Source of the DNA: Candidatus Doudnabacteria bacterium
Lineage (GTDB): Bacteria; Patescibacteriota; Doudnabacteria; UBA920; O2-02-FULL-48-8
Length of the DNA: 58,560 bases
Reading direction: 5' to 3'
Assembly: GCA_016182875.1 (NCBI GenBank)
Contig: JACPFQ010000003.1
Span: 1 to 58,560, forward strand
The notes below the pieces were generated by a model, which saw only the letters and a program-made list of their open reading frames with translations, was not told the origin of the DNA and did not search any database. Below, one piece after another: positions 1,085 to 54,329 of the stretch. Numbering within the stretch: position 1 is the first letter of the stretch; each line of letters starts with the position of its first letter. The position numbers were made by a program, and so were the translations under genes.

Positions 1085-1113
1085 TTGACGCAAGCAAAGA
1101 ACTAGGTTAAGCT
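1085..1113 (+). promoter_or_regulatory. Candidate sigma70-like promoter of GC-rich island 1
   Basis: TTGACG (1085-1090), 17-nt spacer, TAAGCT (1108-1113). AGGAGG at 1162-1167 lies 8 nt before the ATG at 1176. Confidence 0.35.
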
Positions 1114-1175
1114 TATCTGTTCGCCATTTTTATTTTACTTTCACGGCCTCAAGGCCCACACAGGAGGAGTTACGC

Positions 1176-2024
1176 ATGCGTAGATTAATCGCGTTCACCG
1201 TCGTCGCGCTGCTCGTTTCGTTCGTGCCCGTTTCCGTCGCTCAGGCACAGACCAACCCGTTCGCGGAAAAGATCACGGTCCGCCTCGGTGTTGGCGGCGT
1301 GAACTTGATCGACGATGTCGAAGAGTCGACGACGTTGGTCAAGGATATCCGAGTTCGGTACCGGATCAACCAGCCCTGGGCCGTCGAGTTCCGCACAAAC
1401 ATCGGCCAGGGCGGCATCGAGCCGAACTACTTCAGGATCACCGACTCGAAGTCCAGAATCAGGGACTTCAACGCTCGCGTCGAGCATCGACGCGGGATCC
1501 TCGTGCTACACGGTGGCGTCGAGTATCTGGCGACTACCGGAGACAATACCAGCACCGTCGAGGTTCTCAGCGGACCGAGGCCGTCATACTGGTGGATGTC
1601 GTCGTATACGCCATGGCCCACCGTCATCGGCCACGCCCGCAGGCAGGAACGACACAGCAGCTCACTTCTCGCTCCGTACGCCGGCGTGGGAGCTTCGGTC
1701 GAGACGAGCGACCGTGTGACGGGATACAGCAACATCCAAGCGCTTATCGGCGTACGTCGGACCGATGAGCGCACCGTCACGTTCCGCGACAACCCCTACA
1801 GCGACGGGTACATCGAGGAGTTCAAAGGCCGGACCTGGGGCTGGGGCTGGGACTTCGGCGGCAGGATACGGCTCATCAGGAGGCTCTCGGTCGAGGCCGA
1901 CGTTGCACTGACCCAGTTCTTCGGGCCGGACGACGTCTCAGAGAACCGGACAGGGAACCCGCAGCTGGACAGCAGGTCGCTCGACCGCACACGGGGTGGT
2001 GTCCGCGCCGTTTACGGGTTCTGA
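1176..2024 (+). CDS. Secreted beta-barrel outer-membrane-protein-like protein (GC-rich island 1)
   Basis: 282 aa. Signal peptide MRRLIAFTVVALLVSFVPVSVAQAQ, alternating beta-strand pattern, C-terminal beta-signal-like GVRAVYGF. Strong SD. Composition far more GC-rich than the flanks. Confidence 0.7.
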   Translation: MRRLIAFTVVALLVSFVPVSVAQAQTNPFAEKITVRLGVGGVNLIDDVEESTTLVKDIRVRYRINQPWAVEFRTNIGQGGIEPNYFRITDSKSRIRDFNARVEHRRGILVLHGGVEYLATTGDNTSTVEVLSGPRPSYWWMSSYTPWPTVIGHARRQERHSSSLLAPYAGVGASVETSDRVTGYSNIQALIGVRRTDERTVTFRDNPYSDGYIEEFKGRTWGWGWDFGGRIRLIRRLSVEADVALTQFFGPDDVSENRTGNPQLDSRSLDRTRGGVRAVYGF

Positions 2025-2042
2025 AACCGTCGCGCGCATGCA

Positions 2043-2110
2043 GAAAGAGCACGGAGCTTTCCTTCGGGAACGCCAGACGTTCCTTCGGGACATTCGTGCT
2101 CTTTCATTTT
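2043..2110 (+). terminator. Long hairpin plus T-run downstream of island-1 ORF
   Basis: GAAAGAGCACG (2043-2053) pairs with CGTGCTCTTTC (2095-2105), followed by ATTTT. The loop holds two TCCTTCGGGA mini-hairpins. Confidence 0.5.
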
Positions 2111-2117
2111 GCTTAAA

Positions 2118-2215
2118 AACAAGATCCCCGCTTTCGCGGGGATGAAAATAGATCGCCACGTCGGCCTACGGCCTCCTCGCGAATGCGCATTTGCGAGGAG
2201 CGAAGCGACGAAGCA
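2118..2215. repeat. Cluster of short GC-rich hairpin repeats (IPAFAGM-type)
   Basis: ATCCCCGCTTTCGCGGGGAT, GGCCTACGGCC and CCTCGCGAATGCGCATTTGCGAGG hairpins. The same ATCCCCGCTTTCGCGGGGAT module recurs at 6845-6866. Confidence 0.7.
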
Positions 2216-2217
2216 AT

Positions 2218-3750
2218 CTATAACTTGGTTAAAACCGTATTTATATAAATCTTGCCGTTGTACTTGGGGGCTTTGCGCACGAAGAATGGCGACAACTTCA
2301 CCTCTATCTGGTCGACCTCGGGTTTGGACAGCAGGATTTCCTTGATTTCCGAAGTCTTCTTGCCGCTTAAGATTCTTTTGAGATTCTCGGTCTCGACCTT
2401 GTAAGCGATGATTCGGCTATAGTGGACCTCTAGTGTGCCTTGGCCCAGGTTCAAATCCTTGTCTTTGAATTCAGCCTGAATGACTTTCGTGCTCCCATCA
2501 ACTATATATTTATCATCAGCCAGGACGCTCTTAATCTGCTGGTCCATGAGGCTGGTGGCGTCATTTTCGTTAAAGGTCAGTCCTTTGATTCTGGCGATCA
2601 CGGTCATGCTGAAGCTTTCGGCTTCGTCCCCGACTTCTTTGTCAGCGGTGCTGGCCAGGATTTCCTTCTCCACGCCCGACGGAAGCAGTCTTGTTCCCGG
2701 AGTTTCGGAATCGAGTTCTGCCTGGGCTTCGGATATCAAATCGGCCGTGATTTTACCCAGAGCCTGGTCCAAATCAGCCTGCGAGAGCACGGTTTTGGCA
2801 GTCGCCTGTCCCCCGCTTATGGGCCCCGAAGTCAATCCATAGACCTCTGGCCGGTTGCCCAAGGCGGCATTGCTGATCGTAAGCTTGGTATCGGATGCAA
2901 GATTATATCCTTCGCCCGGCTGCTCCGCCACTATGTCCACGAGAGGGTTGCTGTTGCTTTGGCTGGTCGTAGGCTTGATGCCGGTGACGTCCTTGGTAAA
3001 AAAATATTTTTTCCCTTCAAAAAGCAAAGTCGTGGTGGAAGCCTTGAGCGTCAGGGTGTTTCCTGTGCCATTGTAAATCTGGATCTTGCCCGCGGCCTTG
3101 CTTCCCGAAAAGCTGCTTCCCGTTGCTTTGAAGTCTCCTGTTTTGGAAACCTCTTTGCTGTAAATTTTTCCCGGAATGGTGAGAGTGCTGTAGTTGGCGG
3201 CAGTGGCGTTTTGGTCAACTTTCAATTCCGCGTCGCGGTCTATGGATTCCGATCTCGCGTAGATTGTAATCTGCGCCTGAGGCAGAAGAACGGAAGCCAG
3301 CACCAGCACAATCAAGGTTACTGCCGCGGCCGCTATCGATTTCTTGATAGTTGAGCCGGAAAATCTTCTTGCCTTATTGCTTTTAAGTTCGCTGATGGTG
3401 GCAGCCGGCAAGACCCTGGCTTTCTTGACTCCCACATCCGAAAAAGATTTTTTGGAGGAGGATTTGGTCTGCCTCTTCGGCATCATGTTCTTAACGTCAG
3501 CTTCGCTGTATCCGGCCAAAACCCCGGCCTTGATGGCTAGAAGTTTGCCGACGGGATCATCCGTCGTGATCGTGACTTTTTTCTTAAGCGTCTCGCCCGT
3601 GCGGCGCAGAAGCTTCAAATTAGCCGAACTCGAAAGGAGCCGGCTGCCTTTTTCCAATTCAAAAATAATTTCCCGCTCATTGAGATTTTTAATCTGCTGA
3701 ATGGCGGAAACCAAGTCATCTTTCTTGCCTAATTTTACGACCTTGCTCAT
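2218..3750 (-). CDS. Conserved hypothetical single-pass membrane protein with a large extracytoplasmic domain
   Basis: 510 aa. Soluble N-terminal roughly 80 aa, TM segment SIAAAAVTLIVLVLASVLLP, then a beta-rich S/T/G-rich region. I do not recognise a function. Confidence 0.75.
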   Translation of the reverse strand: MSKVVKLGKKDDLVSAIQQIKNLNEREIIFELEKGSRLLSSSANLKLLRRTGETLKKKVTITTDDPVGKLLAIKAGVLAGYSEADVKNMMPKRQTKSSSKKSFSDVGVKKARVLPAATISELKSNKARRFSGSTIKKSIAAAAVTLIVLVLASVLLPQAQITIYARSESIDRDAELKVDQNATAANYSTLTIPGKIYSKEVSKTGDFKATGSSFSGSKAAGKIQIYNGTGNTLTLKASTTTLLFEGKKYFFTKDVTGIKPTTSQSNSNPLVDIVAEQPGEGYNLASDTKLTISNAALGNRPEVYGLTSGPISGGQATAKTVLSQADLDQALGKITADLISEAQAELDSETPGTRLLPSGVEKEILASTADKEVGDEAESFSMTVIARIKGLTFNENDATSLMDQQIKSVLADDKYIVDGSTKVIQAEFKDKDLNLGQGTLEVHYSRIIAYKVETENLKRILSGKKTSEIKEILLSKPEVDQIEVKLSPFFVRKAPKYNGKIYINTVLTKL

Positions 3751-3764
3751 GTAAGCATTCTACC

Positions 3765-4565: not shown

Positions 4566-4597
4566 AAGTATATTGTCTTAATTATTCTAAAGCGTTA

Positions 4598-4623
4598 TGT
4601 CATTCTGAACGAAGTGAAGAATC
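4598..4623. repeat. Left terminal inverted repeat bracketing the GIY-YIG gene
   Basis: TGTCATTCTGAACGAAGTGAAGAATC matches the reverse complement of 4901-4926 at about 21 of 26 positions. Confidence 0.6.
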
Positions 4624-4896
4624 CCACAAGTCATTAAGCTTGGGATTTATGCTTCTTATCAACTTGAACTTTTTTACTCTGGTCCATCCCTTTATTTTTT
4701 TCTCCGCAGTTAACGCTTCGTCATTTATATTGCTAAACTCCTCTACAAACAAAAGTTTATTAACATTATATCTCTTTGTAAATCCTTTACGTTTCTTATT
4801 ACGATGTTCGTCCATGCGCCTATAAATATTATTAGTGACTCCTGTATAAATTACACTATGCCATTGATTTGACGCTATGTAAACGTAATAGCTCAT
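4600..4896 (-). CDS. GIY-YIG nuclease family protein (UPF0213-like)
   Basis: 98 aa. YYVYIASN...VIYTGVTNNIYRRMDEH...GFTKRY...LLFVEEF...A..E.KIKGW is the classic GIY-YIG pattern. Confidence 0.9.
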   Translation of the reverse strand: MSYYVYIASNQWHSVIYTGVTNNIYRRMDEHRNKKRKGFTKRYNVNKLLFVEEFSNINDEALTAEKKIKGWTRVKKFKLIRSINPKLNDLWDSSLRSE

Positions 4897-8328: not shown

Positions 8329-9180
8329 TCAATGCACTCTCTTTTTGCTTCGAAACAAGTTCAGCACTAAAACTAAATACATACGCAAGTTGATACCCAA
8401 ATACACCAGCTGGTTGAAAAGCCAGGGATATTGATTGGCATAGTGCTTGCGATAAAAAATTTTCATGGCCTGGTGAGCGGATTTGATGGTACGAAAGGCA
8501 ATCGCCTGGGCTGAGCCATATTTGTAATGAATCACCACCGGCTTGGGATAGTACATAACTTTGTATCCAGCTTCTTTAATCCTCCAGCACCAGTCCAAAT
8601 CCTCGCCATACATAAAAAATTGTTCATCCAGAAGCCCAACCTGGTCAATCACCGACTTGCGGACCATTAAATACGCCCCCACTCCTGAGTCAATTTCGAC
8701 TTCCTCGTCTATTGGTGATGTGGCATTGTAGTCGCTATATTGTTTGAATCCAAACAAGCGCAAAAAAGAATTCCAAGGATTTGGAAATTTGCGCCTGGCC
8801 GCCTGGTCCAGCTCGCCGTTCGGCAGAAGAATTTTTGGGCTCAAGGCGCCGACGTTAGAGTGAGAGTCCATATATTTGATTGATAAATCAAAAGTGTCGG
8901 GCCGGACTTCGGTATCGGAATTCAAAAGCAGGATATAACGGCCAGAAGCCTGCTTAAGGGCGGCATTGTTGCCTTTGGCAAAACCAAGATTGGCTTTGTT
9001 TTCAAGAAGTTTAACCTTCGGAAATTCCGCCTTAACCATCTCAACGCTGCCATCAACTGAGCCGTTGTCGGAAACCAAAACTTCGAATTGGCAATTAGTT
9101 TGGGACGCAAAAACCGACTCCAGGCACTTTTGGAGCAGTTTTTTCGTATTAAAATTCACAATGACAATTGATAAGTCCAT
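8329..9180 (-). CDS. Family 2 glycosyltransferase
   Basis: 283 aa. SIVIVNFN...SDNGSVDGS...LLLNSDT...FFMYGEDLDWCWR are typical GT2 (GT-A) motifs. Confidence 0.9.
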   Translation of the reverse strand: MDLSIVIVNFNTKKLLQKCLESVFASQTNCQFEVLVSDNGSVDGSVEMVKAEFPKVKLLENKANLGFAKGNNAALKQASGRYILLLNSDTEVRPDTFDLSIKYMDSHSNVGALSPKILLPNGELDQAARRKFPNPWNSFLRLFGFKQYSDYNATSPIDEEVEIDSGVGAYLMVRKSVIDQVGLLDEQFFMYGEDLDWCWRIKEAGYKVMYYPKPVVIHYKYGSAQAIAFRTIKSAHQAMKIFYRKHYANQYPWLFNQLVYLGINLRMYLVLVLNLFRSKKRVH

Positions 9181-9228
9181 TTGATATGATTATGATTAAG
9201 TATATTCGATTTTCAAGGAGGGAACTAT

Positions 9229-9588
9229 ATGCGCTCAAGCGCTAATCGGGATTTTGTCCCGACCAGCGAACAGGTGCAGACGATGCTGGGTCGGGCCAAG
9301 TCCGCTCCCGTAATCAGTCTAGCATTTGCCCTGCTCGCTCAACTGGCCATCCAGCATCGCCGCTACCTGGAATATCTCCGATTCTGGGAAGACCGAAAAC
9401 CGGCAAAAGCCAACATCCTCGCTTTCTATGAAGGACTTCACGTGCGGCAATGTCCCAAAGCCATTCGCGACAAGGTCAAAGAGATTATCGCAGATATTTC
9501 TGCGATACCCACTGAGCCGCAAGCCGCAGCAAGTACCCAACGCTACGGGACGCCACGCAAAAGACTGCGCAGTGCCGCACCCCCTTAG
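9229..9588 (+). CDS. Hypothetical protein (GC-rich island 2), antisense to the flanking GT operon
   Basis: 119-aa ORF with AAGGAGGG 6-7 nt before the ATG. It is GC-rich compared with the flanking GT2 genes. No recognisable domain. Confidence 0.5.
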   Translation: MRSSANRDFVPTSEQVQTMLGRAKSAPVISLAFALLAQLAIQHRRYLEYLRFWEDRKPAKANILAFYEGLHVRQCPKAIRDKVKEIIADISAIPTEPQAAASTQRYGTPRKRLRSAAPP

Positions 9589-10607
9589 CCCAGGTTTGTC
9601 CCCGCGGCTCTTTTTTTTAGCATGCGCGGAATCTGCCTAAGCAACTGCGGCAAAACTTTCAAGGTGCTCATCTCCAACAAAATTATATACCCAAGCATGG
9701 CAATTTCGCGGAGGATGAATGCCGGGTGAAAAATAAACTTGGCATTCTTAATGTACATCAAAATGTGATTTTTGTAATTGAGCCTCCGAACCACAGGCGA
9801 AAGCTTTGAGTGATGCTTGATGAAATTGAAAATTTTGAGGTATCCGCCCTTGGCTTGTCCGGCCGTCCGGCCGTGATAAGCTACTGCCTCCGGCACATAG
9901 ACATTCTTGAATCCCGCACGATTCAAGCGCCACGACAAATCCACGTCCTCCCAGTAAGCGACAAAATCTTCGTCAAAGTACTCGCAGTATAACTCCCCCG
10001 CTTTGCCTGATGCAGTTTCACCCCCTCTTAAATTAAGAGGGGGTCGGGGGGAGTTATTCCCACAGTACTTTACCTTTTCCAAAGCGCTTCTCCGATACAT
10101 TGGCCCTGCTCCGCTGACACCAAAAACTTCACGTTTGTAGTCGTATTGGCCGTTGTCTTGCTCAAGCTGTCCCCTATCCCTAGCTCGGCCGGAACTAGAC
10201 ATCACAACCCCGGTCGAGTCGATAATATTCGTCTTCTGATTTTTTTCAAAATCGTAGCGCAAAAGTTTACCAGTCGCCGCGGCGACTTGCGGGTTCTCAA
10301 AAACTTTCAAGAGATTCTCAATATAATCCGGTTCCAGAATCAAATCCGGGTTGACCAGCTGGATAAATTCACCCGAGGAGTTTTTGATTCCCAAGTTATT
10401 TCCACCGGCAAAGCCGAGGTTTTGGCCAGGCTCAATAATTTTCGCCTGCGGATAATTTCTTTGCAGGATTCCCTTAGCGCCATCATCAGCATTTACGACC
10501 GCAATAATTTCCAGGTCTTTATGCGTCTGTGCCAAAACCGCATCCATCACTGGCTTGATGAATTTTTTGCTGTTATATAGAATTAATATAACACTAACCT
10601 TGGGCAT
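9585..10607 (-). CDS. Family 2 glycosyltransferase carrying an in-frame palindromic-repeat insertion
   Basis: 340 aa. VSVILILYNS...NLGFAGGNN...LVNPD...YWEDVDLSWR. The segment NNSPRPPLNLRGGETASGKAGE is encoded by repeat 10019-10062. Confidence 0.9.
   Translation of the reverse strand: MPKVSVILILYNSKKFIKPVMDAVLAQTHKDLEIIAVVNADDGAKGILQRNYPQAKIIEPGQNLGFAGGNNLGIKNSSGEFIQLVNPDLILEPDYIENLLKVFENPQVAAATGKLLRYDFEKNQKTNIIDSTGVVMSSSGRARDRGQLEQDNGQYDYKREVFGVSGAGPMYRRSALEKVKYCGNNSPRPPLNLRGGETASGKAGELYCEYFDEDFVAYWEDVDLSWRLNRAGFKNVYVPEAVAYHGRTAGQAKGGYLKIFNFIKHHSKLSPVVRRLNYKNHILMYIKNAKFIFHPAFILREIAMLGYIILLEMSTLKVLPQLLRQIPRMLKKRAAGTNLG
10019..10062. repeat. Intragenic copy of the CCCCCTCTTAAATTAAGAGGGGG palindromic module
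   Basis: CACCCCCTCTTAAATTAAGAGGGGGTCGGGGGGAG. The same module occurs intergenically at 47552-47578, and related ones at 42821-42846, 48438-48462 and 55026-55050. Confidence 0.75.
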
Positions 10608-11518: not shown

Positions 11519-11547
11519 TACTGCAATACGGGGAAGTATTGCAGTAT
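11519..11547. repeat. 29-bp hairpin TACTGCAATACGGGGAAGTATTGCAGTAT (copy 1)
   Basis: Identical to 12093-12121. 13-bp stem. Lies immediately 3' of the YerC-like stop codon on the minus strand. Confidence 0.8.
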
Positions 11548-18972: not shown

Positions 18973-19001
18973 TTGCGAGTTCCGAAAAATTATAGCATAA
19001 T
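18973..19001 (+). promoter_or_regulatory. Candidate promoter of GC-rich island 3
   Basis: TTGCGA (18973-18978), 17-nt spacer, CATAAT (18996-19001). GGAGGAG at 19014-19020 precedes the ATG at 19027. Confidence 0.4.
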
Positions 19002-19026
19002 CATACAAGGAACGGAGGAGCATGCA

Positions 19027-19401
19027 ATGGATTGGCAACTGCTGCACTTGACATTGGTGATGTCTGCAATGGTATTTGCGATGCGGGCGTTCACCAATCG
19101 TTGGTGGTCGCACGCATTGGCACTCTCGATAAGCATGCTGCTTTTCTTAAGCGGCATCAACTTGACCATTCTGGCCTTCATTCAAGCTCAGGAGAACATC
19201 ACGTTGTTACTGCAATACTTTCCTGAGCTTTCGGTGGGACGAGCTGAACGCCTGACCGTACTTTATGAAATCGTTGGGCGTCTCTGGCCGCTGAACCTGC
19301 CGCTTGCGGCTTATGCACTGGCGGAAGCCTGCCTATGGCTTATCGCCGTGTATAAGAAGTTCCGCAGCCGCACCCTCGTGCTAATCGTCATCCATCACTA
19401 G
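19027..19401 (+). CDS. Small integral membrane protein of unknown function (GC-rich island 3)
   Basis: 124 aa counted from the MDWQLLHLTLVMSAMVFAMRAF start, with 3-4 hydrophobic segments. Canonical SD at about 8 nt. Antisense to the neighbouring genes. Confidence 0.55.
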   Translation: MDWQLLHLTLVMSAMVFAMRAFTNRWWSHALALSISMLLFLSGINLTILAFIQAQENITLLLQYFPELSVGRAERLTVLYEIVGRLWPLNLPLAAYALAEACLWLIAVYKKFRSRTLVLIVIHH

Positions 19402-19427
19402 CCGGCCCCTCGGGTCGGCATTTTTTT
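19401..19427 (+). terminator. Rho-independent terminator
   Basis: GCCGGCCC-CTC-GGGTCGGC stem-loop followed by A and seven T. It overlaps the stop codon of the convergent 573-aa gene. Confidence 0.65.
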
Positions 19428-28370: not shown

Positions 28371-28430
28371 ACTCCGACGCCGACTTTGTCGGGTCGGAAT
28401 CCCGACTTGCACGTTGTGCAACGTCGGGAT
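28371..28430. repeat. GC-rich hairpin repeats at the left border of island 4
   Basis: CCGACGCCGACTTTGTCGGGTCGG and ATCCCGACTTGCACGTTGTGCAACGTCGGGAT. Confidence 0.65.
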
Positions 28431-28458
28431 TGACAAATTGCTGGCGATAAACCATAAT
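28430..28458 (+). promoter_or_regulatory. Near-consensus sigma70-type promoter of GC-rich island 4
   Basis: TTGACA (28430-28435), 17-nt spacer, CATAAT (28453-28458). AAGGAGG at 28554-28560 lies 7 nt before the GTG at 28568. Confidence 0.5.
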
Positions 28459-28567
28459 CGGGTGTTCCACTCTGACTCTTTTCGACACAAAAGTCAGGGT
28501 AGAACGCCTGAACATTTCATCACCAAGCCGGTTCACCGGCACTGTACGAAACGAAGGAGGAACCATC

Positions 28568-29857
28568 GTGCGCATGACAATTGCAATGCTGGTGTTTCTG
28601 CTTGGGCTTGCCAGCTCTGGCATCGTCTCGGCGCAGACGCTCCCCGACCGGTTCAGTTCCCGAGCCGAGTGCCTGGCTGCTCTCAAAAGCGGCCGATACC
28701 GGGCTTACGTGCCCAGTTTCCTCACGCTCAAGCGTGAACCGACAGCGGGAGAAGAAGTTCGTCCGCTGGAGGCCAACGCCTGCATGCGGATGCACATCGT
28801 CGGCACCCGCAGGCTATGGGTCGTTCAAATGGCAGGCACGGAGTTCATCTTCCGCGCTGGTCAACCAGTGGCCAGGTACGACTGCGGCAACGAAGTCTAT
28901 GAAACCGCATACCTGCCTGAGCCAGTTGCGATTCGGCTCCCGCCTCCACCGCCGCCGCCTACCCAGACATTCACTCCGCCACCGGCCATACCAGAACTCC
29001 CGCCTCTACCGCCGGTTCGCCGCTTCCCTCTTCCACCGACATATCAAGAGCCGCCTGACGAAGACGAAGACCTGGAGTTCGTCTGGGACATCTCACCAGG
29101 CGTCATCGGCGGCCCGGTACGCGGTGACTTCCGCTACCCTGACCCAAGACGTGGGGACGCTCCGTGGCGGCATCGCTTCTTTGCTTCGGTGATAAAGGCA
29201 CGGGCAGAGATGCTGACGCCTGACCATAACGCCGGCTTTTTTGCCTCACTAATTACCACCTTCTCAGGTGAAGCCTCGAAGCCGGAGTTCCAGAACATCC
29301 GCGGGGAATGGAACCGCAAGCGGCGTGAAGCCGACGACAGCCGCGACAAGTTCACCGACGTGAAGTTTGGCGTCAAACTGCCAGTCGGCAACATCGTCTC
29401 GGTAGGCGTGGGAGCCGACTACAACAGAATCTGCTTTTGCCAACTGTATCTGGCGCAGAACGCGCGAAGCGAAGATCGGCGCCGGTTCAGTACGTGGGGC
29501 CTGGGAGTCGAGGCCGTGGGCGCTACGGAAGGCCGCGGACTCGTTGCCCGAGCCGGAGGAGTCCTCGGGCTGGCTGGCGACCGAAGGAGATCGTTCAAGC
29601 AGTTCTACCACAGCCCACCGGCAATCGACTTCCCGCCGGTCACAGATCCCAAGGAAGACGCCAAGCGGCATGAACTGGCGGCATCGGTTGAGCTCGGAAT
29701 CGCCTTCGGGGCGAACGAAGCTGACCCGGCGTTCGTGCTCAAGCCGTTCCTCGGGGTGACGTGGTCGAACTGGAAGTCATTCCGGCCCAACACGCATCCG
29801 GCCACGGAGTTCACGACACTCCTCGGTTGGAACGGAGGGCTCGGGTTCAGCTTCTAA
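28568..29857 (+). CDS. Secreted OMP-like protein: N-domain, Pro-rich TonB-like linker, beta-barrel-like C-domain (GC-rich island 4)
   Basis: 429 aa. Signal peptide MRMTIAMLVFLLGLASSGIVSAQ. Linker PPPPPPTQTFTPPPAIPELPPLPPVRRFPLPP. C-terminal beta-signal-like GGLGFSF. Confidence 0.7.
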   Translation: MRMTIAMLVFLLGLASSGIVSAQTLPDRFSSRAECLAALKSGRYRAYVPSFLTLKREPTAGEEVRPLEANACMRMHIVGTRRLWVVQMAGTEFIFRAGQPVARYDCGNEVYETAYLPEPVAIRLPPPPPPPTQTFTPPPAIPELPPLPPVRRFPLPPTYQEPPDEDEDLEFVWDISPGVIGGPVRGDFRYPDPRRGDAPWRHRFFASVIKARAEMLTPDHNAGFFASLITTFSGEASKPEFQNIRGEWNRKRREADDSRDKFTDVKFGVKLPVGNIVSVGVGADYNRICFCQLYLAQNARSEDRRRFSTWGLGVEAVGATEGRGLVARAGGVLGLAGDRRRSFKQFYHSPPAIDFPPVTDPKEDAKRHELAASVELGIAFGANEADPAFVLKPFLGVTWSNWKSFRPNTHPATEFTTLLGWNGGLGFSF

Positions 29858-29907
29858 CTGGCCTGGCCTGCATGCGCTCACCTGCCGCAAGGCAGGCAAT
29901 ACGAAAA

Positions 29908-29948
29908 GGCGGACGTCACCCTCCGGGGTGCGTCCGCCGTATTTTTTT
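29908..29948 (+). terminator. Rho-independent terminator of island 4
   Basis: GGCGGACG-TCACCCTCCGGGGTG-CGTCCGCC followed by GTATTTTTTT. An extra CCTGCCGCAAGGCAGG hairpin lies at 29881-29896. Confidence 0.75.
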
Positions 29949-43612: not shown

Positions 43613-43778
43613 GCTCCTCCAGACCGTCTCCTGTAACTGCTAAAAACAATTATACATTAAAAAAGAGCTGACACTACCGGGTATCAGCCCAGCTTTCGCT
43701 CGGGGACAACAAACCCCAAGCATAATAGCGCAATCCAGACCCGTGAGATAATCCGCACGACATTGGCTTCCGGCAGGC

Positions 43779-44501
43779 CTAACTAGCTGACCTTGCCATT
43801 GCTTGCTTCAGCCTCCTGGCGGCACAGGCGTGGAGCTGAGAGACTCGCGATTCGTTAACCCCGATTGCGGCGCCTATCTGCCTCATGGTCTGCTCGCCGA
43901 AGTAGTAGAGAACAATCACCTTCTGCTCACGTGGTGGGAGCGTGGCGATGGCTCTACGGACCAGCTGGCGTACTTCCTGCCTTTCCAAAGCTTTATCAGG
44001 CTGCTCAGGCTCAGGCGGGACCAAGGACGAAGGCAACAGTGAAGAATCTACACCGTCGCTGTTTGTCAGAGGCGAGGTCGACTCGATAATGTTGATCCGG
44101 ATGATCCTTTTCTCGAGGCGGCGCTCGCTCGTCTGGAGACGTCTGGCTAGATCGGCCAGGGATGGTTCTTCGCCCAGCTCGCGCCTGAGTTCTTCACATG
44201 CCGCTTCCAGCTCACGACGCTGCCGGCGCACTCCTCGCGGCCAGGCGTCTTTGCGCAAGGCGTCAATCATGGCTCCGCGAATCCGGCGCTCGGCAAAAGT
44301 CTGAAACTTGATTCCCCGTCGCTTGTCGAATCGGCGTGCTGCGTCAATCAACCCCAGCACTCCGTCTTGAACCAGGTCGTTCACTTCAACCGAATACGGC
44401 ATGGTTGCAGCCACCCGACGAGCGAGCTGCTCCACGAACGGAATACATTCCAACACTCTTGCTTCCTGTTCCTCAGGAAGCAACATGGTCCGTGCGCTCA
44501 T
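43779..44501 (-). CDS. FliA/WhiG-type (group 3) sigma-70 family sigma factor (GC-rich island 5)
   Basis: 240 aa from MSARTM. AGGAGG lies 6 nt upstream. Region 2 DLVQDGVLGLIDAARRFD and TFAERRIRGAMIDALR. Region 4 LPPREQKVIVLYYFGEQTMRQIGAAIGVNESRVSQL. Confidence 0.85.
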   Translation of the reverse strand: MSARTMLLPEEQEARVLECIPFVEQLARRVAATMPYSVEVNDLVQDGVLGLIDAARRFDKRRGIKFQTFAERRIRGAMIDALRKDAWPRGVRRQRRELEAACEELRRELGEEPSLADLARRLQTSERRLEKRIIRINIIESTSPLTNSDGVDSSLLPSSLVPPEPEQPDKALERQEVRQLVRRAIATLPPREQKVIVLYYFGEQTMRQIGAAIGVNESRVSQLHACAARRLKQAMARSAS

Positions 44502-44581
44502 GTAAATCCTCCTGATGAACGTGAATAAACGAATTATAACACAAACGCCGACAACTATGGTATAATGGTCAAGCAAATTTC

Positions 44582-50519: not shown

Positions 50520-50737
50520 TTTAAGTATTTAACCGCGAGGCGCAGTTGCAAAACTAGCCTTCGCAGGCCGGCTCATCCGGCCGAGAACGCAGGGGCGACG
50601 GGTGGCGTGGTTTTTGGGGACCCCGACAGCGCGCAACGATAGTGAGCACTGGCGGGGTAAAAACCACGGCAGGACCCGTCGCCTGCCCCGACGTAACGTC
50701 GGGGACAGCCGGTAGTTTTGTCCAACTGCGCCGAGCG
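50520..50737. repeat. Roughly 215-bp GC-rich nested palindrome (MITE-like or structured RNA), related to 6841-7040
   Basis: Outer arms GGCGCAGTTGCAAAACTAGCC and GGTAGTTTTGTCCAACTGCGCC. Inner arms GGCGACGGGTGGCGTGGTTTTT and AAAAACCACGGCAGGACCCGTCGCC. Local hairpins CGGCTCATCCGGCCG and CCCCGACGTAACGTCGGGG. Confidence 0.75.
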
Positions 50738-51733
50738 CTAATTTTGAGTCAATAAGCTTTTCGCCTCCTCCCACATGCCCCAGTCATTGTGCTTGTGCGC
50801 CAGCCAGTACCACCATTCCACTCCCCAGAGATAATTTTCTTCAAATCCCACTTTTTTGGCGTAAGTGATGTTTCGTTCAAACACCTTCGGGTTCATAAGC
50901 GACAATTGGTCGGAAAGAGCGGTTTTTTCTATCCCTTCCCTAAACCAGGGCTCGGCCTGCAGTTCCACTCCAATAACCTTTTCGATTCCCGTGAACTTTT
51001 TAAGCCAACCGGCCCGAATGCGGTAGAAAAAAGACGGCAACGGGTATTGGTAATATCCCAGTCGCGGCTGATAAACCGTGCGGTACATCGTGGACCCGAA
51101 CATGTCGGCTCCCAGCTTGGCCGTGGCAACCCAAGCTCCTTTCTCGCCGCTGTCGGTCAGAAGCACAGGCCGTGCGTCCAAGCCCTTTACCGCTTCGATT
51201 TCCCTGCGCACAAGTTCTTCGCCCAACTTCGGGCACTCATATCCGAATTCGAACAACGGCTCGTTTTCCACCTGCCAAACTTTGATGGCGGAGAATTGTC
51301 TGAAATGTCCCACAGCCCGTTCTATCATCCGAACTTGGGCGTTCTCTTTTTCAGTTTCAGAATCCAACTCTCTCACCCATTTTGGTTCATGGCACTCTGG
51401 CCAACGCGGCTGTTTGCGGCCCACGACCAAAATCACGTCAATCCCCTGCTTTCCCGCCTCAATCAGCATTTCATCCATGATCTGGAAATCAAATTTGTCC
51501 TTCATGGGTTCAATCATGTCCCAATACGCCATCAACCGAATCTTTTTGGGCTTAAGGTCATTGAGCACATCGAGATAAAGCGTCTTCCAGTCAAATCCGA
51601 GGTACTGCGCATGCGGGACTGAAAAATTTAAGCCAAACTGCACTAAATCCTTCGGTTCGAACTGGAAATAGAAATAAGACAAAATCGAAACGACGACAAT
51701 AACGATAACTATGACAGCTTTAGTAGTTTTCAT
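50738..51733 (-). CDS. Membrane-anchored TIM-barrel glycoside hydrolase-like protein (clan GH-A-like)
   Basis: 331 aa. N-terminal TM. VWQVENEP acid/base-type motif. The family is not resolved by eye. Confidence 0.55.
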   Translation of the reverse strand: MKTTKAVIVIVIVVVSILSYFYFQFEPKDLVQFGLNFSVPHAQYLGFDWKTLYLDVLNDLKPKKIRLMAYWDMIEPMKDKFDFQIMDEMLIEAGKQGIDVILVVGRKQPRWPECHEPKWVRELDSETEKENAQVRMIERAVGHFRQFSAIKVWQVENEPLFEFGYECPKLGEELVRREIEAVKGLDARPVLLTDSGEKGAWVATAKLGADMFGSTMYRTVYQPRLGYYQYPLPSFFYRIRAGWLKKFTGIEKVIGVELQAEPWFREGIEKTALSDQLSLMNPKVFERNITYAKKVGFEENYLWGVEWWYWLAHKHNDWGMWEEAKSLLTQN

Positions 51734-52620
51734 AAAGTTAGCAGGACCAGCCCAACGGTGACCAAGACGATGGCCGCGATTTTTTGGGACAAAATGGCGG
51801 CAGAAATATTTTCCCTTAAGACCTTGGGAAATCGGAGGGATAGAAAAGACGTCAACACCAAAAGGAATATAAATTGCGTCCCCTGCAAAGCATTCACAAT
51901 CGTAACACTGCCGATGGAAACTGCAAAGTTCTGCAAGAATCCCCCAACGGTCCCCAAGAAGCGGGAAGAATAATAAATCGCGACATTCTTAGTCTTGGCC
52001 TCTTTCGGAGCCTGAAAAATGTACCTGCGGTTTTGAGGAGAAGCTAAGAATGCCATGGCAGTAACAAAAAATCCGAGCCTGGTCCAAACCATGCCCGAAA
52101 CGTAATTGCTGACATCAAAAATATACTTGCTGAATGCCGCCGACAAAGCGAACAGGAGCGACGAAAGCACAACATACTTCAAGGCCACCGGATGCCACTG
52201 GCCAGACTCCTTTTTGAAAGAAATCAAGACTGCTCCGCAGACCAAAAAAACAAAAGCGATGTATTGTATCGCATCCAACCGCTCTCCCAATAAAACAAGA
52301 GCTAAGAACAGGGTGAAGAGCGGGGTCAGCCCGCCTTGTATGGGCAGGATTCTTGAGACCGTGGTTTTTTGAACCGCTACAAAATAATAATAAATCGCCA
52401 GCACCAGGCAAACGCCCGATATGATAGCTATGAAAAAGTCAGGAAGACTCAACGATTTAAGTCCAAACGGGGCCAACAGCAGGGAAAACGGGCCGGTAAT
52501 GCCGATATAAAACGCGTAGGCTACCGGATGCCGTACAACCTTGCTGACCAAAAACTTGTCAATCACGGCGCTTATCGCAAACAGCAGGTAGGCCGAGATT
52601 GCAAAATAAATCCAAGCCAT
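51730..52620 (-). CDS. EamA/DMT-family transporter
   Basis: 296 aa with 10 TM segments in a two-repeat EamA-like architecture. Confidence 0.8.
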   Translation of the reverse strand: MAWIYFAISAYLLFAISAVIDKFLVSKVVRHPVAYAFYIGITGPFSLLLAPFGLKSLSLPDFFIAIISGVCLVLAIYYYFVAVQKTTVSRILPIQGGLTPLFTLFLALVLLGERLDAIQYIAFVFLVCGAVLISFKKESGQWHPVALKYVVLSSLLFALSAAFSKYIFDVSNYVSGMVWTRLGFFVTAMAFLASPQNRRYIFQAPKEAKTKNVAIYYSSRFLGTVGGFLQNFAVSIGSVTIVNALQGTQFIFLLVLTSFLSLRFPKVLRENISAAILSQKIAAIVLVTVGLVLLTL

Positions 52621-52621
52621 G

Positions 52622-53812
52622 TTAAAAGTTAACAGTTATTTCTTTGAAAACTCTGGCGCTTTCGCGGACACGCCTCTCCTGCGTTTCAAAATCCACCTCC
52701 ACCAATCCAAACTTGGGGCCAAATCCGTCATGCCATTCGTAGGTGTCGGTAAGCGACCAGTAAAAATACCCTCTGACGTCCACGCCGAAATCGATGGCTT
52801 TTTTGGCCCAATAAAGATGTTCGGCGATAAATCGTTTTCTCATATCATCGGAAGCGTTGGCAATGCCGTTTTCCGTAACGTAAACGGGCTTGTTGTATTT
52901 TCTTAGAGCTCGAAGCAGATAATAAATCCCTTCCGGATGGGTTCTCCAGCCCATATCCGAGCGCGCTTCTTCCTCACTCGGCTTCACGCGCTGAAATCCT
53001 GATTTCAAATCAAGCCGCAGCCGTTCGTAAAAATAATAATTCAACCCGATGAAATCGAGCTGCTTCCTTATCTTTTCGAAAAAATAGTGATTGGCGAAAA
53101 AATTTGCAATTTTGACCGCCTGTTTGTCCGTCCACTTATTTCGATATGGCTCCATGTACACGCTATTTTTGGCCACACCGACTTTAGCGTCAGGGTTCAC
53201 CTCTTTGATCGCTCTATACGCCGCCTTGTGAGCGCGGATTAGGTTGCCTATGACCTTCAAAAACCCAGGCAGGCTTTTTTTGAATGGCGGCCAGATTCCA
53301 AACCGGTACCCCATGCCTGCGTAAATTTCCGGTTCATTTATGGTCACCCACAAGTCCACTTCTGACTTTAAATTCTGGGCCAAAAACCAGGCGAAGCGCC
53401 CGAAAGCCGCAGCGCCCTCCCGCGTGGCCATGCCGCCCCTGTCGGCAAGCCACCGCGGCAGAGTGAAGTGATGCAAAGTGACCATGCGCGTCATGCCGAG
53501 GTCCTTCAGCTTTCGCAAAACCTTTTTGTAGTGCTCAAGCTCTGAAACCGACCACTTGCCCTCAGCCGGCTCAATCCGGCTCCACTCGATGGAAATCCGC
53601 ATGGCGTTCAAGCCGATTTGCTTCGCCAGCGCAAAGTCTTCTTCGAAGCGGTTGTAATGATCGCAGGCCTTGCCGGATTTGGGGAGCTTGCCCATTTCCT
53701 CATACATCCACCAGTCGCTGTTTTTGTTGTTTCCTTCCACCTGGTGCGCCGAGGATGCGGCTCCCAACAAAAATCCGTTCGGCAAAGACAGTTTTATTTC
53801 TTGATTATTCAT
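52622..53812 (-). CDS. GH1 beta-glucosidase
   Basis: Start at MNNQEIK (53812). GAASSAHQVEG, TLHHFTLPRW, TINEPEIY (acid/base) and YVTENGIA (nucleophile). Confidence 0.9.
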   Translation of the reverse strand: MNNQEIKLSLPNGFLLGAASSAHQVEGNNKNSDWWMYEEMGKLPKSGKACDHYNRFEEDFALAKQIGLNAMRISIEWSRIEPAEGKWSVSELEHYKKVLRKLKDLGMTRMVTLHHFTLPRWLADRGGMATREGAAAFGRFAWFLAQNLKSEVDLWVTINEPEIYAGMGYRFGIWPPFKKSLPGFLKVIGNLIRAHKAAYRAIKEVNPDAKVGVAKNSVYMEPYRNKWTDKQAVKIANFFANHYFFEKIRKQLDFIGLNYYFYERLRLDLKSGFQRVKPSEEEARSDMGWRTHPEGIYYLLRALRKYNKPVYVTENGIANASDDMRKRFIAEHLYWAKKAIDFGVDVRGYFYWSLTDTYEWHDGFGPKFGLVEVDFETQERRVRESARVFKEITVNF

Positions 53813-53912
53813 GAACCGATGAGTATATAGTAACAAAAAAAATAAGGGCCAGCCATGAGGCGAGCCCGGTTAGAAACCCGCAGCCTATAAAGCTGCATCG
53901 ACATTCGAGCCG

Positions 53913-54098
53913 CTAGCTTTCGGCCGAAGTTGACGCCGCCTGCTGCTGGGTCGTTTGTGCGAGGAGTGCATTGAGACGAGCCTGTGCCGCCTCGAGTTCC
54001 TGTCTGGCGTACCCTCTGTTGATCTGACCCTCGGCTCTGTCCAACCTGCCCCTGTAGAACTCCACTTCCCTCCTGGCAGCTGCGATCTTGTCGTTCAT
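53913..54098 (-). CDS. Small coiled-coil protein of unknown function (GC-rich island 6)
   Basis: 61 aa, Arg/Ala/Gln-rich heptad-like sequence. GGAGGG lies 8-9 nt before the ATG. A hairpin plus T-run follows at about 53835-53869 on the minus strand. Confidence 0.45.
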   Translation of the reverse strand: MNDKIAAARREVEFYRGRLDRAEGQINRGYARQELEAAQARLNALLAQTTQQQAASTSAES

Positions 54099-54329
54099 GT
54101 TTATGTACCCTCCGTAAAAGAAAACAGCCCTTGTGAGGGCTGCCGAATTTGCTCAAACTCAATCAGCCTTCACGAGGAGTGAGGAATAATGATTCCGATT
54201 GATTTTGAGCCGATATTTTCCATGCCTAAGATAATAGCACAGACTTATTTTGTTGAAAAGACCCCACAAAAACGATTGACCAAAAAAAAGCCATGGCCTA
54301 AAATCGATCAATGCTTTCTATGCCTATGA

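What the first reader, a model, noticed from the sequence alone, without database searches (positions are those of the whole stretch)
1085..54160. Six GC-rich, expression-ready single-gene cassettes scattered through an SD-poor CPR-like backbone
Six segments are visibly GC-rich compared with their flanks: about 1085-2110, 9229-9590, 18973-19427, 28430-29948, 43655-44580 and 53840-54160. My hand counts give 64 G+C in 1201-1300 and 42 of 60 in 28921-28980, against 49 of 100 in 36001-36100. Each segment carries exactly one ORF. Each ORF has a canonical AGGAGG-type Shine-Dalgarno site 6-9 nt before its start. Most backbone starts I inspected have none (lgt, aspS, scpA, rarA, the CdaR-like gene, CAP, the 573-aa gene). 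Islands 1, 3 and 4 also show a sigma70-like -35/-10 pair; I found no convincing one in island 2 (its best pair is poor) and none in islands 5 and 6. Five of the six end in a hairpin plus T-run; in islands 5 and 6 that hairpin is weak, and island 2 has only a poor 5-bp stem and overlaps the GT2 stop codon. All six sit in intergenic gaps, and four are antisense to long minus-strand operons. The products are two beta-barrel OMP-like proteins ending in aromatic-x-Phe, a FliA-type sigma factor, and small membrane or coiled-coil proteins. These suit a diderm, flagellated, GC-rich donor rather than a CPR cell. The islands have no integrase, no shared att-like flank and no array organisation. If real, this is repeated capture of complete foreign transcription units by an unknown route, for example from a host organism. 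It could also be an assembly or construction artefact.
Basis: partly seen in the sequence, partly recalled or inferred. Interest (0 to 1): 0.8.

Follow-up and report, generated by a model that had tools for sequence, protein, structure and literature searches.

The report
Conserved GC-rich SD-led genes in Doudnabacteria
A genome piece from an ultra-small CPR bacterium (Candidatus Doudnabacteria) holds six real, self-contained genes with a ribosome-binding site, GC content and codon usage unlike the rest of the genome; at least two are old, inherited features that have kept this foreign look, not freshly captured host DNA.

Summary
Six monocistronic ORFs carry a GGAGG-core Shine-Dalgarno site 6-10 nt upstream, against 0-1 of 49 backbone genes. 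They have higher GC at all codon positions, and in a leave-one-out codon-usage test they rank as the top six of 55 genes. By raw GC alone only islands 1, 4 and 5 stand out.

They are not assembly artefacts. Independent Logan assemblies span both junctions of islands 2-6. Island 1 joins Doudnabacteria-type repeats in six assemblies, but its link to the next gene is unconfirmed and its left side is an IS30 insertion into more GC-rich DNA.

The backbone is Candidatus Doudnabacteria, with sortase and pilin genes. The idea of a recent capture from a host is only partly right:
- **Sigma factor (island 5):** 69-76% identical to genes native to 60-68% GC soil bacteria.
- **Islands 2 and 4:** they sit at the same syntenic sites in other Doudnabacteria species. 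There they show the same SD, GC3 of 0.65-0.75, promoter and terminator, although synonymous sites are saturated.
- **Islands 1 and 3:** orphans.

Island 4 models as a 10-stranded OmpT/OpcA-like barrel. Why the composition persists is unexplained.

The parts
1085..2110 (+). Island 1. ORF 1176-2024 (282 aa) with a Sec-type signal peptide and an OMP_b-brl domain. SD AGGAGG at 1162-1167, weak -35/-10 at 1085-1113, long hairpin plus T-run at 2047-2110.
   Evidence: Pfam PF13505, 37.2 bits against a cut-off of 28.7. GC 0.62, GC3 0.80. No homolog other than itself in the exhaustive phmmer search. Six Logan contigs carry it.
4..1068 (-). IS30-family insertion sequence (transposase ORF 8-1003), flanked by the 7-bp direct repeat TCCCTTT. 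It is inserted upstream of the island 1 promoter and is polymorphic in the population.
   Evidence: Pfam HTH_38 and a weak rve hit. Logan contig L004 shows the empty site. L001 shows GC-rich DNA (59% GC, the 3' end of another ORF) on the far side.
2116..2220 (.). Backbone-type palindromic repeats that form the right edge of island 1. ATCCCCGCTTTCGCGGGGAT (2124-2143) recurs at 6847-6866. Element 2175-2220 recurs in another Doudnabacteria genome (L045).
   Evidence: All Logan contigs break at 2188-2199, inside this repeat.
9168..9618 (+). Island 2. ORF 9229-9588 (119 aa), SD AAGGAGG at 9215-9221, promoter-like pairs at 9161-9196, weak T-run at 9600-9618. It overlaps the stop of the convergent GT2 gene by 4 nt.
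   Evidence: Orthologs 41-48% identical (P0192, P0279, P0205) lie between the same two GT2 genes in Rifle Doudnabacteria. Junctions are spanned in 6 or more assemblies.
18973..19427 (+). Island 3. ORF 19027-19401 (124 aa; hydrophobic, apparently a multi-pass membrane protein by inspection of the sequence, no predictor run), SD GGAGGAG at 19014-19020, TTGCGA-17-CATAAT at 18973-19001, terminator at 19401-19427.
   Evidence: Orphan in the exhaustive search. Both junctions are spanned in five Logan assemblies (a sixth contig, L035, starts inside the island). Absent at the equivalent site in L046.
28430..29948 (+). Island 4. ORF 28568-29857 (429 aa, GTG start): signal peptide, about 100-aa N-domain, Pro-rich linker and a 10-stranded beta-barrel. 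TTGACA-17-CATAAT at 28430-28458, about 95-nt 5'UTR, SD AAGGAGG at 28554-28560, strong terminator at 29908-29948.
   Evidence: AF2 model, pLDDT 80. Foldseek top hits are OmpT, Pla and OpcA, probability 1.0. Syntenic orthologs in L041, L045 and L053 show the same anomalies. Both junctions are spanned in three Logan assemblies (L007-L009; two further contigs, L010 and L011, end inside the terminator).
43659..44541 (-). Island 5. ORF 43779-44501 (240 aa), a FliA/WhiG-family sigma factor. SD AGGAGG at 44508-44513, extended -10 TGTTATAAT at 44533-44541, weak terminator at 43659-43688.
   Evidence: Pfam sigma-70 regions 2, 3 and 4. TIGR02479, 196 bits against a cut-off of 189.6. 69-76% identity to proteins native to 60-68% GC contigs. 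Junctions are spanned in 5 assemblies.
53835..54143 (-). Island 6. ORF 53913-54098 (61 aa, predicted coiled coil). SD GGAGG at 54108-54113, a hairpin plus T-run directly upstream at 54116-54143, weak terminator at 53835-53867.
   Evidence: One homolog, 48% identical over 56 aa. Both junctions are spanned in three Logan assemblies (L036-L038; two further contigs stop at or just past the ORF stop).

Best explanation
The window is chromosomal DNA of a Candidatus Doudnabacteria (CPR/Patescibacteria) bacterium. Its ordinary genes are translated without a Shine-Dalgarno site.

Scattered among them is a small, separate class of genes. Each is monocistronic, has its own promoter-like and terminator-like signals and a strong SD, and uses GC-rich, C-ending codons. 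Most encode secreted or envelope proteins; two are outer-membrane-type beta-barrels.

This class is not a recent burst of captured host DNA. It has built up over a long time. At least two members (islands 2 and 4) predate the split of Doudnabacteria species and have been inherited in place. One (the sigma factor) came from GC-rich non-CPR bacteria. Islands 1 and 3 are lineage-specific additions of unknown source.

The foreign-looking signature is actively maintained. It survives in orthologs whose synonymous sites are saturated, so neutral drift toward the genome's composition (amelioration) should have erased it.

Shown: the islands are real; the SD/composition split is real; islands 2 and 4 are syntenically conserved with the same anomalies; the sigma factor has non-CPR affinity; island 4 has a barrel fold.

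Inferred:
- The genes use SD-dependent initiation on the cell's own ribosomes.
- Selection on expression keeps the codon bias.
- The barrels descend from diderm genes.
- The fast-evolving products act at the cell surface or at the interface with a host.
For: - Split between the two gene classes: SD in 6 of 6 island ORFs against 0-1 of 49 backbone genes. ORF GC differs with Mann-Whitney p=1.4e-7, and the six rank top in leave-one-out codon usage.
- Real DNA: independent Logan assemblies are collinear with the window at 98.7-100% identity (100% for most) and span both junctions of islands 2-6 (three to six contigs per island).
- Lineage: synteny and 55-89% amino-acid identity to NCBI MAGs labelled Candidatus Doudnabacteria. 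The backbone has sortase, SpaA/DUF11 pilins and DUF5656.
- Island 4 orthologs in L041, L045 and L053: gene GC 0.58-0.62 against 0.46-0.49 for the locus as a whole, GC3 0.71-0.75, an AGGAGG/GAGGAGG SD, a TTGACA-17-TATAAT-type promoter and a strong terminator. Neighbouring genes lack a canonical SD (one, L053 5223-5858, has a partial AAGGAG).
- Island 2 ortholog lies between the same GT2 genes and has CCAAGGAGG.
- Saturation: pS is 0.72-0.86 for flanking orthologs. Island 4 dN is 0.54-0.65, against 0.07-0.29 for flanking orthologs in the L041 comparison (0.43-0.47 for the two flanks compared with L045).
- The island codon bias (ATC, AAC, GAC, TAC, CTC, AAG; also TTC, which the r-protein genes partly share) is mostly absent from three ribosomal-protein genes of a relative, so it is not simply that lineage's high-expression bias.
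- Sigma factor homologs are native to 60-68% GC contigs, where the flanks have the same GC.
Against: - No donor is detectable for islands 1-4 and 6. Their only homologs are in CPR contexts, or there are none, so a foreign ancestry for them is inference from composition and fold only.
- No mechanism for keeping the composition has been demonstrated.
- The 16S rRNA 3' end of this organism was not available. An anti-SD motif is reported missing in about half of Parcubacteria (PMC9297842). If it is missing here, SD-dependent translation in the CPR cell fails as an explanation.
- The ribosomal-protein comparison rests on only 479 codons from another species.
- Island 1's link to the neighbouring 510-aa gene is not confirmed by any independent assembly.
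Confidence: 0.55

Rival explanations
1. These are native Doudnabacteria genes and were never foreign. They are a small set of very highly or specially expressed envelope genes. Strong selection for C-ending codons, an SD and consensus promoters creates the GC-rich look. Only the sigma factor is a true import.
For: - Homologs of islands 2 and 4 are found only in CPR contexts, and at conserved sites.
- The signature persists past synonymous saturation, which requires selection.
- The bias is mostly C-ending NNY codons, which are commonly the translationally preferred ones.
- Promoters are near consensus.
Against: - GC1 and GC2 are also shifted, with high Arg, Pro and Ala and low Lys, Ile and Asn. 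Codon selection does not explain that.
- Ribosomal-protein genes of a relative lack both the SD and most of this bias.
- OMP-type barrels are unexpected in a lineage regarded as having a single membrane (monoderm).
- The sigma factor shares the same signature and is demonstrably foreign.
Confidence: 0.25
2. One reading: all six are recently and repeatedly captured complete transcription units from a GC-rich, diderm, flagellated host. They have not yet drifted toward the recipient's composition.
For: - The sigma factor's nearest relatives are in GC-rich non-CPR genomes.
- Islands 1 and 3 are absent at the equivalent sites in a relative.
- Composition and SD look foreign.
- Single-gene HGT into Patescibacteria is documented (PMC12455944).
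Against: - Islands 2 and 4 are syntenic orthologs across species with saturated synonymous sites.
- The sigma factor is only about 70% identical at the nucleotide level to any sampled relative. No flanking DNA is shared, and the donor-type sigma-54 promoter has been replaced.
- No donor is found for islands 1-4 and 6 in 1.84 billion representatives.
- There is no flagellar context on the donor side.
Confidence: 0.1
3. The genes are kept in host-compatible form (SD, sigma-70 consensus promoter, GC-rich codons, complete transcription units) because they are delivered to, or function in, a GC-rich diderm host cell. This would resemble T-DNA genes carrying the recipient's expression signals. The barrels would be assembled in the host outer membrane and the sigma factor would redirect host RNA polymerase.
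For: - It would explain several facts at once: an SD in an SD-free genome, a non-ameliorating composition, OMP barrels in a monoderm-type cell, a sigma factor 70-76% identical to those of GC-rich bacteria, and insulated monocistronic units.
- Some Parcubacteria reportedly lack the anti-SD (PMC9297842).
Against: - There are no transfer borders, no relaxase or T4SS, and no clustering in the window.
- The genes are scattered and syntenically fixed like ordinary chromosomal genes.
- No precedent exists in CPR.
- Nothing here tests expression in a host.
- The island 4 family's C-terminal beta-signal is not conserved.
Confidence: 0.04
4. Assembly or binning artefact: GC-rich fragments of another organism were mis-joined into a CPR contig.
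For: Island 1's right junction falls at an assembly-graph branch. No Logan contig spans 2193-2199, and one contig (L001) continues differently.
Against: - Both junctions of islands 2-6 are spanned at 98.7-100% identity in three or more independent assemblies.
- The same islands exist in other species' genomes.
- The break at 2193-2199 lies inside a Doudnabacteria-wide repeat that is contiguous in the same form in L045.
- Island 1 is joined to backbone-type repeats in six assemblies.
Confidence: 0.02

Closest known systems
Single-gene horizontal transfers and genomic islands in groundwater Patescibacteria (Gios et al. 2025, PMC12455944)
   Same: These are individually transferred genes inserted in streamlined CPR genomes, with occasional non-CPR donors. 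The sigma factor here fits that pattern.
   Different: [quoted passage not shown] Here the atypical GC, codon usage and SD persist in syntenic orthologs after synonymous saturation. For five of the six genes no donor outside CPR is detectable.
Amelioration model of horizontally acquired DNA (Lawrence and Ochman 1997; from my own knowledge)
   Same: Islands 1, 4 and 5 show the classical signature of un-ameliorated foreign genes, with all three codon positions shifted.
   Different: The model predicts that GC3 converges on the recipient's value. Island 4 keeps GC3 at 0.70-0.75 in four lineages whose backbone GC3 is about 0.5-0.55, with pS at 0.72-0.86.
Rare SD-led genes in SD-poor Bacteroidia, such as rpsU/bS21 autoregulation (from my own knowledge, not tested here)
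   Same: A genome that generally initiates translation without an SD keeps a strong SD on a few genes, which implies a special translational regime.
   Different: Those genes have ordinary composition and are core genes. Here the SD-led genes are accessory, GC-rich, fast-evolving and mostly orphan.
10-stranded outer-membrane barrels: omptins OmpT/Pla and the adhesin OpcA
   Same: The island 4 C-domain model matches them, with Foldseek probability 1.0 and target-normalised TM-score 0.53-0.63. It has a signal peptide.
   Different: Sequence identity is 12-15% and there is no Pfam Omptin hit. It has an extra N-domain and a Pro-rich or collagen-like linker. It is encoded by a sortase-bearing CPR genome that is presumed to lack an outer membrane.
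Agrobacterium T-DNA genes (an analogy for the novel reading only; from my own knowledge)
   Same: Genes carried by one organism but equipped with the expression signals and composition suited to another.
   Different: There are no border repeats and no transfer machinery in view. The genes are dispersed rather than on one transferred segment. Nothing here shows transfer.

Membership tests
Horizontally acquired gene islet | Composition atypical for the recipient genome | tested here: met
   ORF GC, GC1, GC2 and GC3 are all shifted, and the six rank top in leave-one-out codon usage. By raw window GC only islands 1, 4 and 5 stand out.
Horizontally acquired gene islet | Closest homologs lie in a lineage other than the recipient's | tested here: inconclusive
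   Met for the sigma factor. Not met for islands 2 and 4, whose homologs are in Doudnabacteria or other CPR contexts. Islands 1 and 3 are orphans, and island 6 has one 48% hit of unknown origin.
Horizontally acquired gene islet | Patchy presence, with empty sites in relatives | tested here: inconclusive
   Islands 1 and 3 are absent at the equivalent sites of L046. Islands 2 and 4 are present at the same sites in relatives. Islands 5 and 6 could not be examined in relatives.
Integrase- or att-mediated genomic island | Integrase or recombinase, flanking att repeats, tRNA target | tested here: not met
   No integrase is present. The only mobility gene is the IS30 transposase beside island 1, which is itself a separate, polymorphic insertion. 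No family of direct repeats shared among island flanks appeared in the repeat scan. tRNA-Glu lies about 210 nt from island 6, but no repeat of its 3' end was sought.
Integron gene cassette | Promoterless ORF with an attC site, arrayed next to intI | tested here: not met
   The units are dispersed, most carry their own promoter-like sites, and there is no array and no shared 3' element.
FliA/WhiG (sigma-28) family | Score above the curated family cut-off, with sigma-70 regions 2, 3 and 4 | tested here: met
   TIGR02479, 196 bits against a cut-off of 189.6. Pfam regions 2 and 4 are strong and region 3 is weak.
FliA/WhiG (sigma-28) family | Association with flagellar or chemotaxis genes, or sigma-28-type promoters | tested here: not met
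   There are no flagellar genes in the window. On the donor side the neighbours are sigma-54 activators, GGDEF proteins and kinases. No TAAA-N15-GCCGATAA site lies upstream of any island.
Outer-membrane beta-barrel (OMP_b-brl, PF13505) | HMM score above the gathering threshold, or a closed transmembrane barrel fold with a signal peptide | tested here: met
   Island 1: 37.2 bits against 28.7. Island 4: no Pfam hit, but the AF2 model (pLDDT 80) has 10 long strands and matches OmpT, Pla and OpcA. Its homologs P0177 and P0181 give sub-threshold PF13505 hits. The island 1 structure model failed (pLDDT 31).
Outer-membrane beta-barrel (BAM substrate) | Conserved C-terminal beta-signal (aromatic-x-aromatic/Phe) and BAM machinery in the genome | tested here: not met
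   The window proteins end in YGF and FSF, but island 4 family members end in LGN, IGK, KVSF, WGK and other sequences. Whether BamA is present could not be tested, because only this contig is available.
Omptin protease family | Omptin HMM match and the Asp/Asp/Asp/His catalytic residues | tested here: not met
   There is no Pfam hit at E<=0.01 and only 12-15% identity in the structural alignments. Catalytic residues were not examined.
Candidatus Doudnabacteria genome | Gene order and protein identity shared with genomes so labelled | tested here: met
   There are long collinear blocks with GCA_016198045.1, GCA_039931165.1 and Rifle contigs; 13 of the 14 L041 genes with a window match (of 15 compared) pair with the collinear window ortholog at 43-89% amino-acid identity. 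Marker-gene or 16S phylogeny was not possible.

The most novel reading that the evidence does not exclude
Doudnabacteria keep a conserved set of genes deliberately matched to a GC-rich diderm partner (SD, consensus sigma-70 promoter, GC-rich codons, outer-membrane barrels, a partner-like sigma factor). The reason would be that these genes or their products operate in the host cell, not in the CPR cell. For example, the genes could be delivered and expressed there, or the barrels could be inserted into the host outer membrane to form the feeding or attachment interface.
Probability: 0.05. Interest if true: 0.95.

Novelty: new variant of a known kind. Interest (0 to 1): 0.62.

Why it matters
Horizontal transfer into CPR genomes is known. 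Foreign genes are expected to lose their compositional signature with time. Here a minority gene class keeps a foreign-type ribosome-binding site, codon usage and GC content across species whose synonymous sites are fully randomised, in a genome that otherwise makes no use of Shine-Dalgarno sites.

That points to one of two things. Either ultra-small bacteria run a second, SD-dependent translation regime, or some unrecognised force keeps these genes compatible with another organism.

The class also includes outer-membrane-type barrels in a lineage regarded as lacking an outer membrane. These evolve two to three times faster than their neighbours. They are therefore concrete candidates for the still unknown molecules through which these episymbionts touch their hosts.

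All of this can be tested with data that already exist: the 16S 3' ends, metatranscriptomes, and a survey of Doudnabacteria MAGs.

Tried and rejected
- **Genome-contig scan with the sigma protein.** The exact 8-residue patterns were too strict.
- **Concatenated island proteins in the search for homologous proteins.** Both searches returned only the island 4 cluster. They failed to return even P0001 and P0002, which are in the database. I treat them as unreliable negatives. The exhaustive phmmer search replaced them.
- **Single-sequence AF2 of island 1.** pLDDT was 31, so the model is unusable.
- **Consensus fold of the island 4 5'UTRs.** The alignment was too poor and no pairs were predicted.
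- **Sigma-28-type promoters upstream of the islands.** None were found, so the idea that the island sigma factor drives the other islands has no support.
- **Remnant of the donor-type 95-aa C-terminal tail downstream of the sigma gene.** None was found. No flanking DNA is shared with donors either.
- **Rfam searches.** These covered the window, L041, L046 and the structured repeats. Only tRNA-Glu was found.
- **Logan contig L014 as a divergent strain.** It is 100% identical up to 45653 and then switches to a different aspS, probably the co-occurring species. It says nothing about island conservation.
- **Literature search for the SRA run numbers.** Nothing was found.

Full report
**Observation**

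The window is 48.5% GC. As raw segments, islands 1 (60.1%) and 4 (60.6%) are clear outliers against same-length sliding windows (z 2.8 and 3.3). Island 5 is moderate, islands 2 and 6 are weak, and island 3 (51.4%) is not unusual.

At ORF level the picture is sharper. I compared the six ORFs with 49 backbone genes:
- 1176-2024 (+)
- 9229-9588 (+)
- 19027-19401 (+)
- 28568-29857 (+)
- 43779-44501 (-)
- 53913-54098 (-)

The six have higher GC (0.52-0.62 against a mean of 0.467 and a maximum of 0.53; Mann-Whitney p=1.4e-7). GC1, GC2 and GC3 are all shifted. In a leave-one-out synonymous-codon likelihood test they take the six top ranks of 55 genes.

Every island ORF has a GGAGG-core SD 6-10 nt upstream. 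Among the 49 backbone starts only one GGAGG occurs, at a poor spacing of 14 nt. Island 2 has two 10-of-12 candidates and island 5 has an extended -10, TGTTATAAT.

**Artefact test**

All six proteins occur in Logan assemblies of several sequencing runs in the range SRR12113383-SRR12113431. Both junctions of each of islands 2, 3, 4, 5 and 6 are spanned by contigs from three or more independent runs (three for islands 4 and 6, five or six for islands 2, 3 and 5). These contigs are collinear with the window at 98.7-100% identity (100% for most).

Island 1 is more complicated.
- Six contigs carry it.
- On the left it abuts an IS30-family element (window 4-1068, 7-bp direct repeat TCCCTTT).
- One contig (L004) shows the empty site. 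Another (L001) shows 206 nt of 59%-GC DNA, with the 3' end of another ORF, beyond the IS. Island 1 is therefore not shown to be a single-gene unit.
- On the right, island-side contigs stop at 2188 or 2199 and backbone-side contigs stop at 2193. L001 continues differently.
- The break lies inside a palindromic element (2175-2220) that occurs in the same contiguous form in another Doudnabacteria genome (L045). A second hairpin (2124-2143) recurs at 6847-6866.

Island 1 is therefore attached to Doudnabacteria-type repeats in six assemblies. Only its link to the 510-aa gene stays unverified.

**Backbone**

The ordinary genes include sortase, SpaA/DUF11 pilins, a cupin-type GPI, a short AlaRS, rhamnose-pathway genes, DUF5656, lgt and rarA.

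Long collinear blocks match NCBI MAGs labelled Candidatus Doudnabacteria (GCA_016198045.1 and GCA_039931165.1) and Rifle-aquifer contigs. Thirteen of the 14 L041 genes that found a window match (15 were compared) pair with the collinear window gene; the flanking orthologs are 55-89% identical in protein sequence and island 4 is 43%.

In these relatives even ribosomal-protein genes lack an SD.

**Origin of the six genes**

*Sigma factor (island 5).* It passes the FliA/WhiG family cut-off. It is 69-76% identical to thousands of roughly 336-aa metagenomic proteins, one of them labelled Thermoanaerobaculia. The island copy lacks the roughly 95-aa C-terminal tail that most of these relatives carry.

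In 17 long soil-metagenome loci that I examined, the homolog and its flanks share 60-68% GC. In most of them (12 of the 17 upstream stretches as printed) a sigma-54-type TGGTAC-N5-TTGC promoter precedes the gene. In the one locus I annotated (L063), the neighbours are sigma-54 activators, GGDEF proteins and kinases. This gene is foreign to CPR. It is not a recent arrival, though. It is about 70% identical at the nucleotide level to sampled relatives, shares no flanking DNA, and has a replaced promoter.

*The other five.* I ran an exhaustive phmmer search of them against 1.84 billion representative proteins.
- Islands 1 and 3 matched nothing but themselves.
- Island 6 had one 48% match over 56 aa.
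- Island 2 had two small homologs.
- The island 4 barrel domain had about 15 homologs.
- The island 4 N-domain had about 90 homologs.

The homologs that carry names are from Candidatus Doudnabacteria.

**Conservation in place**

The island 4 ortholog lies next to the same pilin, sortase and sugar-epimerase genes in L041, L045 and L053 (between two pilin genes in L041; L045 starts at a contig end). In each of the three:
- it is 58-62% GC against 46-49% for the locus as a whole, with GC3 of 0.71-0.75;
- it carries an AGGAGG or GAGGAGG SD, a TTGACA-17-TATAAT-type promoter and a strong terminator;
- its neighbours lack a canonical SD (one, L053 5223-5858, has a partial AAGGAG).

The island 2 ortholog lies between the same two GT2 genes in Rifle Doudnabacteria. 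It has CCAAGGAGG upstream and GC3 of 0.65.

Synonymous sites between these genomes are saturated, with pS of 0.72-0.86 for flanking orthologs. A neutral foreign gene should by now have the backbone's GC3. Island 4 has not converged in any of four lineages. Its protein evolves two to three times faster than its neighbours in the L041 comparison (dN 0.54-0.65 against 0.07-0.29; against L045 the two flanks compared are themselves at 0.43-0.47).

The island codon bias favours ATC, AAC, GAC, TAC, TTC, CTC and AAG. Three ribosomal-protein genes of a relative do not share most of it (only TTC is also elevated there). It resembles the usage of the GC-rich sigma donors.

Other CPR contigs show similar SD-led, GC-enriched genes (L052). 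L046 has an extra GC-rich segment with a promoter and an SD but no intact ORF.

**Products**

Island 1 passes Pfam OMP_b-brl. For island 4 I built an AF2 model from a 14-sequence alignment; mean pLDDT is 80. It shows a signal peptide, a small N-domain, a disordered Pro-rich linker and a barrel of 10 long strands. The best structural matches are OmpT, Pla and OpcA, with probability 1.0 and target-normalised TM-score 0.53-0.63.

The family's C-terminal residue is not conserved, so the aromatic-x-Phe argument for BAM dependence is weak.

**Interpretation**

What is shown:
- This is a real class of monocistronic genes, SD-dependent in appearance and distinct in composition and codon usage, in Doudnabacteria.
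- At least two members are inherited in place across species with the signature intact.
- One member was imported from GC-rich non-CPR bacteria.

What is inferred:
- The barrels also descend from diderm genes.
- Selection on expression keeps the signature.
- The products act at the surface or at a host interface.

It needs recasting as slow, piecemeal gain with long-term retention of a maintained signature. Assembly artefact is essentially excluded.

The cause of the maintenance is unexplained. A published report says that about half of Parcubacteria lack the anti-SD motif (PMC9297842). That makes the 16S 3' end of this lineage the single most informative missing datum. If it is absent, the host-directed reading would rise sharply from its present probability of about 0.05.

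HGT into Patescibacteria as such is already documented (PMC12455944). I rate this a new variant of a known kind, with moderately high interest.

Noticed in passing
window 4-1068 (ORF 8-1003, minus strand); L001 1-206; L004 1-30: An IS30-family element with imperfect terminal inverted repeats and a 7-bp direct repeat, TCCCTTT. It is polymorphic in the population: one Logan contig shows the empty site. Another shows GC-rich DNA, with the 3' end of a further ORF, beyond the IS. The NCBI contig ends in this IS.
   Followed up: partly
window 6888-7020 and 50533-50740; L041 9715-9835: A family of GC-rich structured intergenic elements. They share a closing stem (GCGAGG..AGTTGCAAAACTAGCC / GGCCGGTAGTTTTGC..CCGAGC) around a variable interior. 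Three copies show 4 compensatory pairs, and the minimum-free-energy z-score is -7.3. No Rfam family matches. They could be a MITE-like repeat or an undescribed ncRNA.
   Followed up: partly
window 10014, 42816, 42886, 47547, 48423, 55019 (ACCCCCTCTTAAATTAAGAGGGGGT type); 42821, 42891, 48358, 55064; 2124 and 6847; 2175-2220 (also in L045 near 7500): Several families of short REP-like palindromes lie in intergenic regions. At least one is shared between Doudnabacteria species. They coincide with break points of the Logan contigs.
   Followed up: partly
window 11519-11547 and 12093-12121: Two identical 29-nt palindromes (TACTGCAATACGGGGAAGTATTGCAGTAT) lie just upstream of the Trp_repressor-like gene and the peptidase S51 gene. 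They could be a shared operator or terminator.
   Followed up: no
window 4600-4896 (minus strand): A small GIY-YIG nuclease ORF with only 33% GC. It sits between the GPI and alaS genes, which are directly adjacent in the relative L046. It looks like a separate, AT-rich insertion.
   Followed up: partly
window 28459-28567; L041 9903-10000; L045 about 355-467; L053 about 800-954: The island 4 orthologs share a 95-150 nt 5'UTR. It contains a conserved hairpin-like motif (CTCTGAC...GTCAGGG(T)AG) that is better conserved than the coding sequence. It may be a cis-regulatory leader. The alignment was too poor to test covariation.
   Followed up: partly
L046 8360-9100 (also in L047 and L051): A 740-nt segment of 55.7% GC in a 46.8% GC genome, lying between the S41 peptidase and GT2 genes. 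It has TTGACA-17-TATACT and two AAGGAGG sites but no intact ORF. It could be a decayed island or an RNA gene. It has no counterpart in the window.
   Followed up: partly
window 54371-54448 (+): tRNA-Glu(CTC) lies about 210 nt from island 6. No repeat of its 3' end was looked for.
   Followed up: no
window 25831-28248 and 30080-32359 (minus strand); repeats at 27433-27858, 30628-31727 and 32028-32242: The two pilin-like genes flanking island 4 are paralogs. They share 70-77% identical blocks and a run of 12/18-nt GTTGGG-type repeats, which on the coding (minus) strand would give a Pro-rich, probably Pro/Thr, linker (inferred from the repeat sequence; not translated here). These repeats cause local misjoins in Logan contig L007.
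   Followed up: partly
L014 1-950 compared with window 45654-46226: This Logan contig is 100% identical to the window up to 45653. Inside aspS it then switches to a sequence about 60-73% identical. This is probably a graph walk into the co-occurring second Doudnabacteria species.
   Followed up: yes
L055, L058, L063, L065, L069 and others, about 40-60 nt upstream of the sigma homolog: The GC-rich soil-bacterial homologs of the island 5 sigma factor are preceded by a conserved sigma-54-type promoter (TTGGTACCGCGGTTGCC). They also carry a roughly 95-aa C-terminal extension that the window copy lacks.
   Followed up: partly
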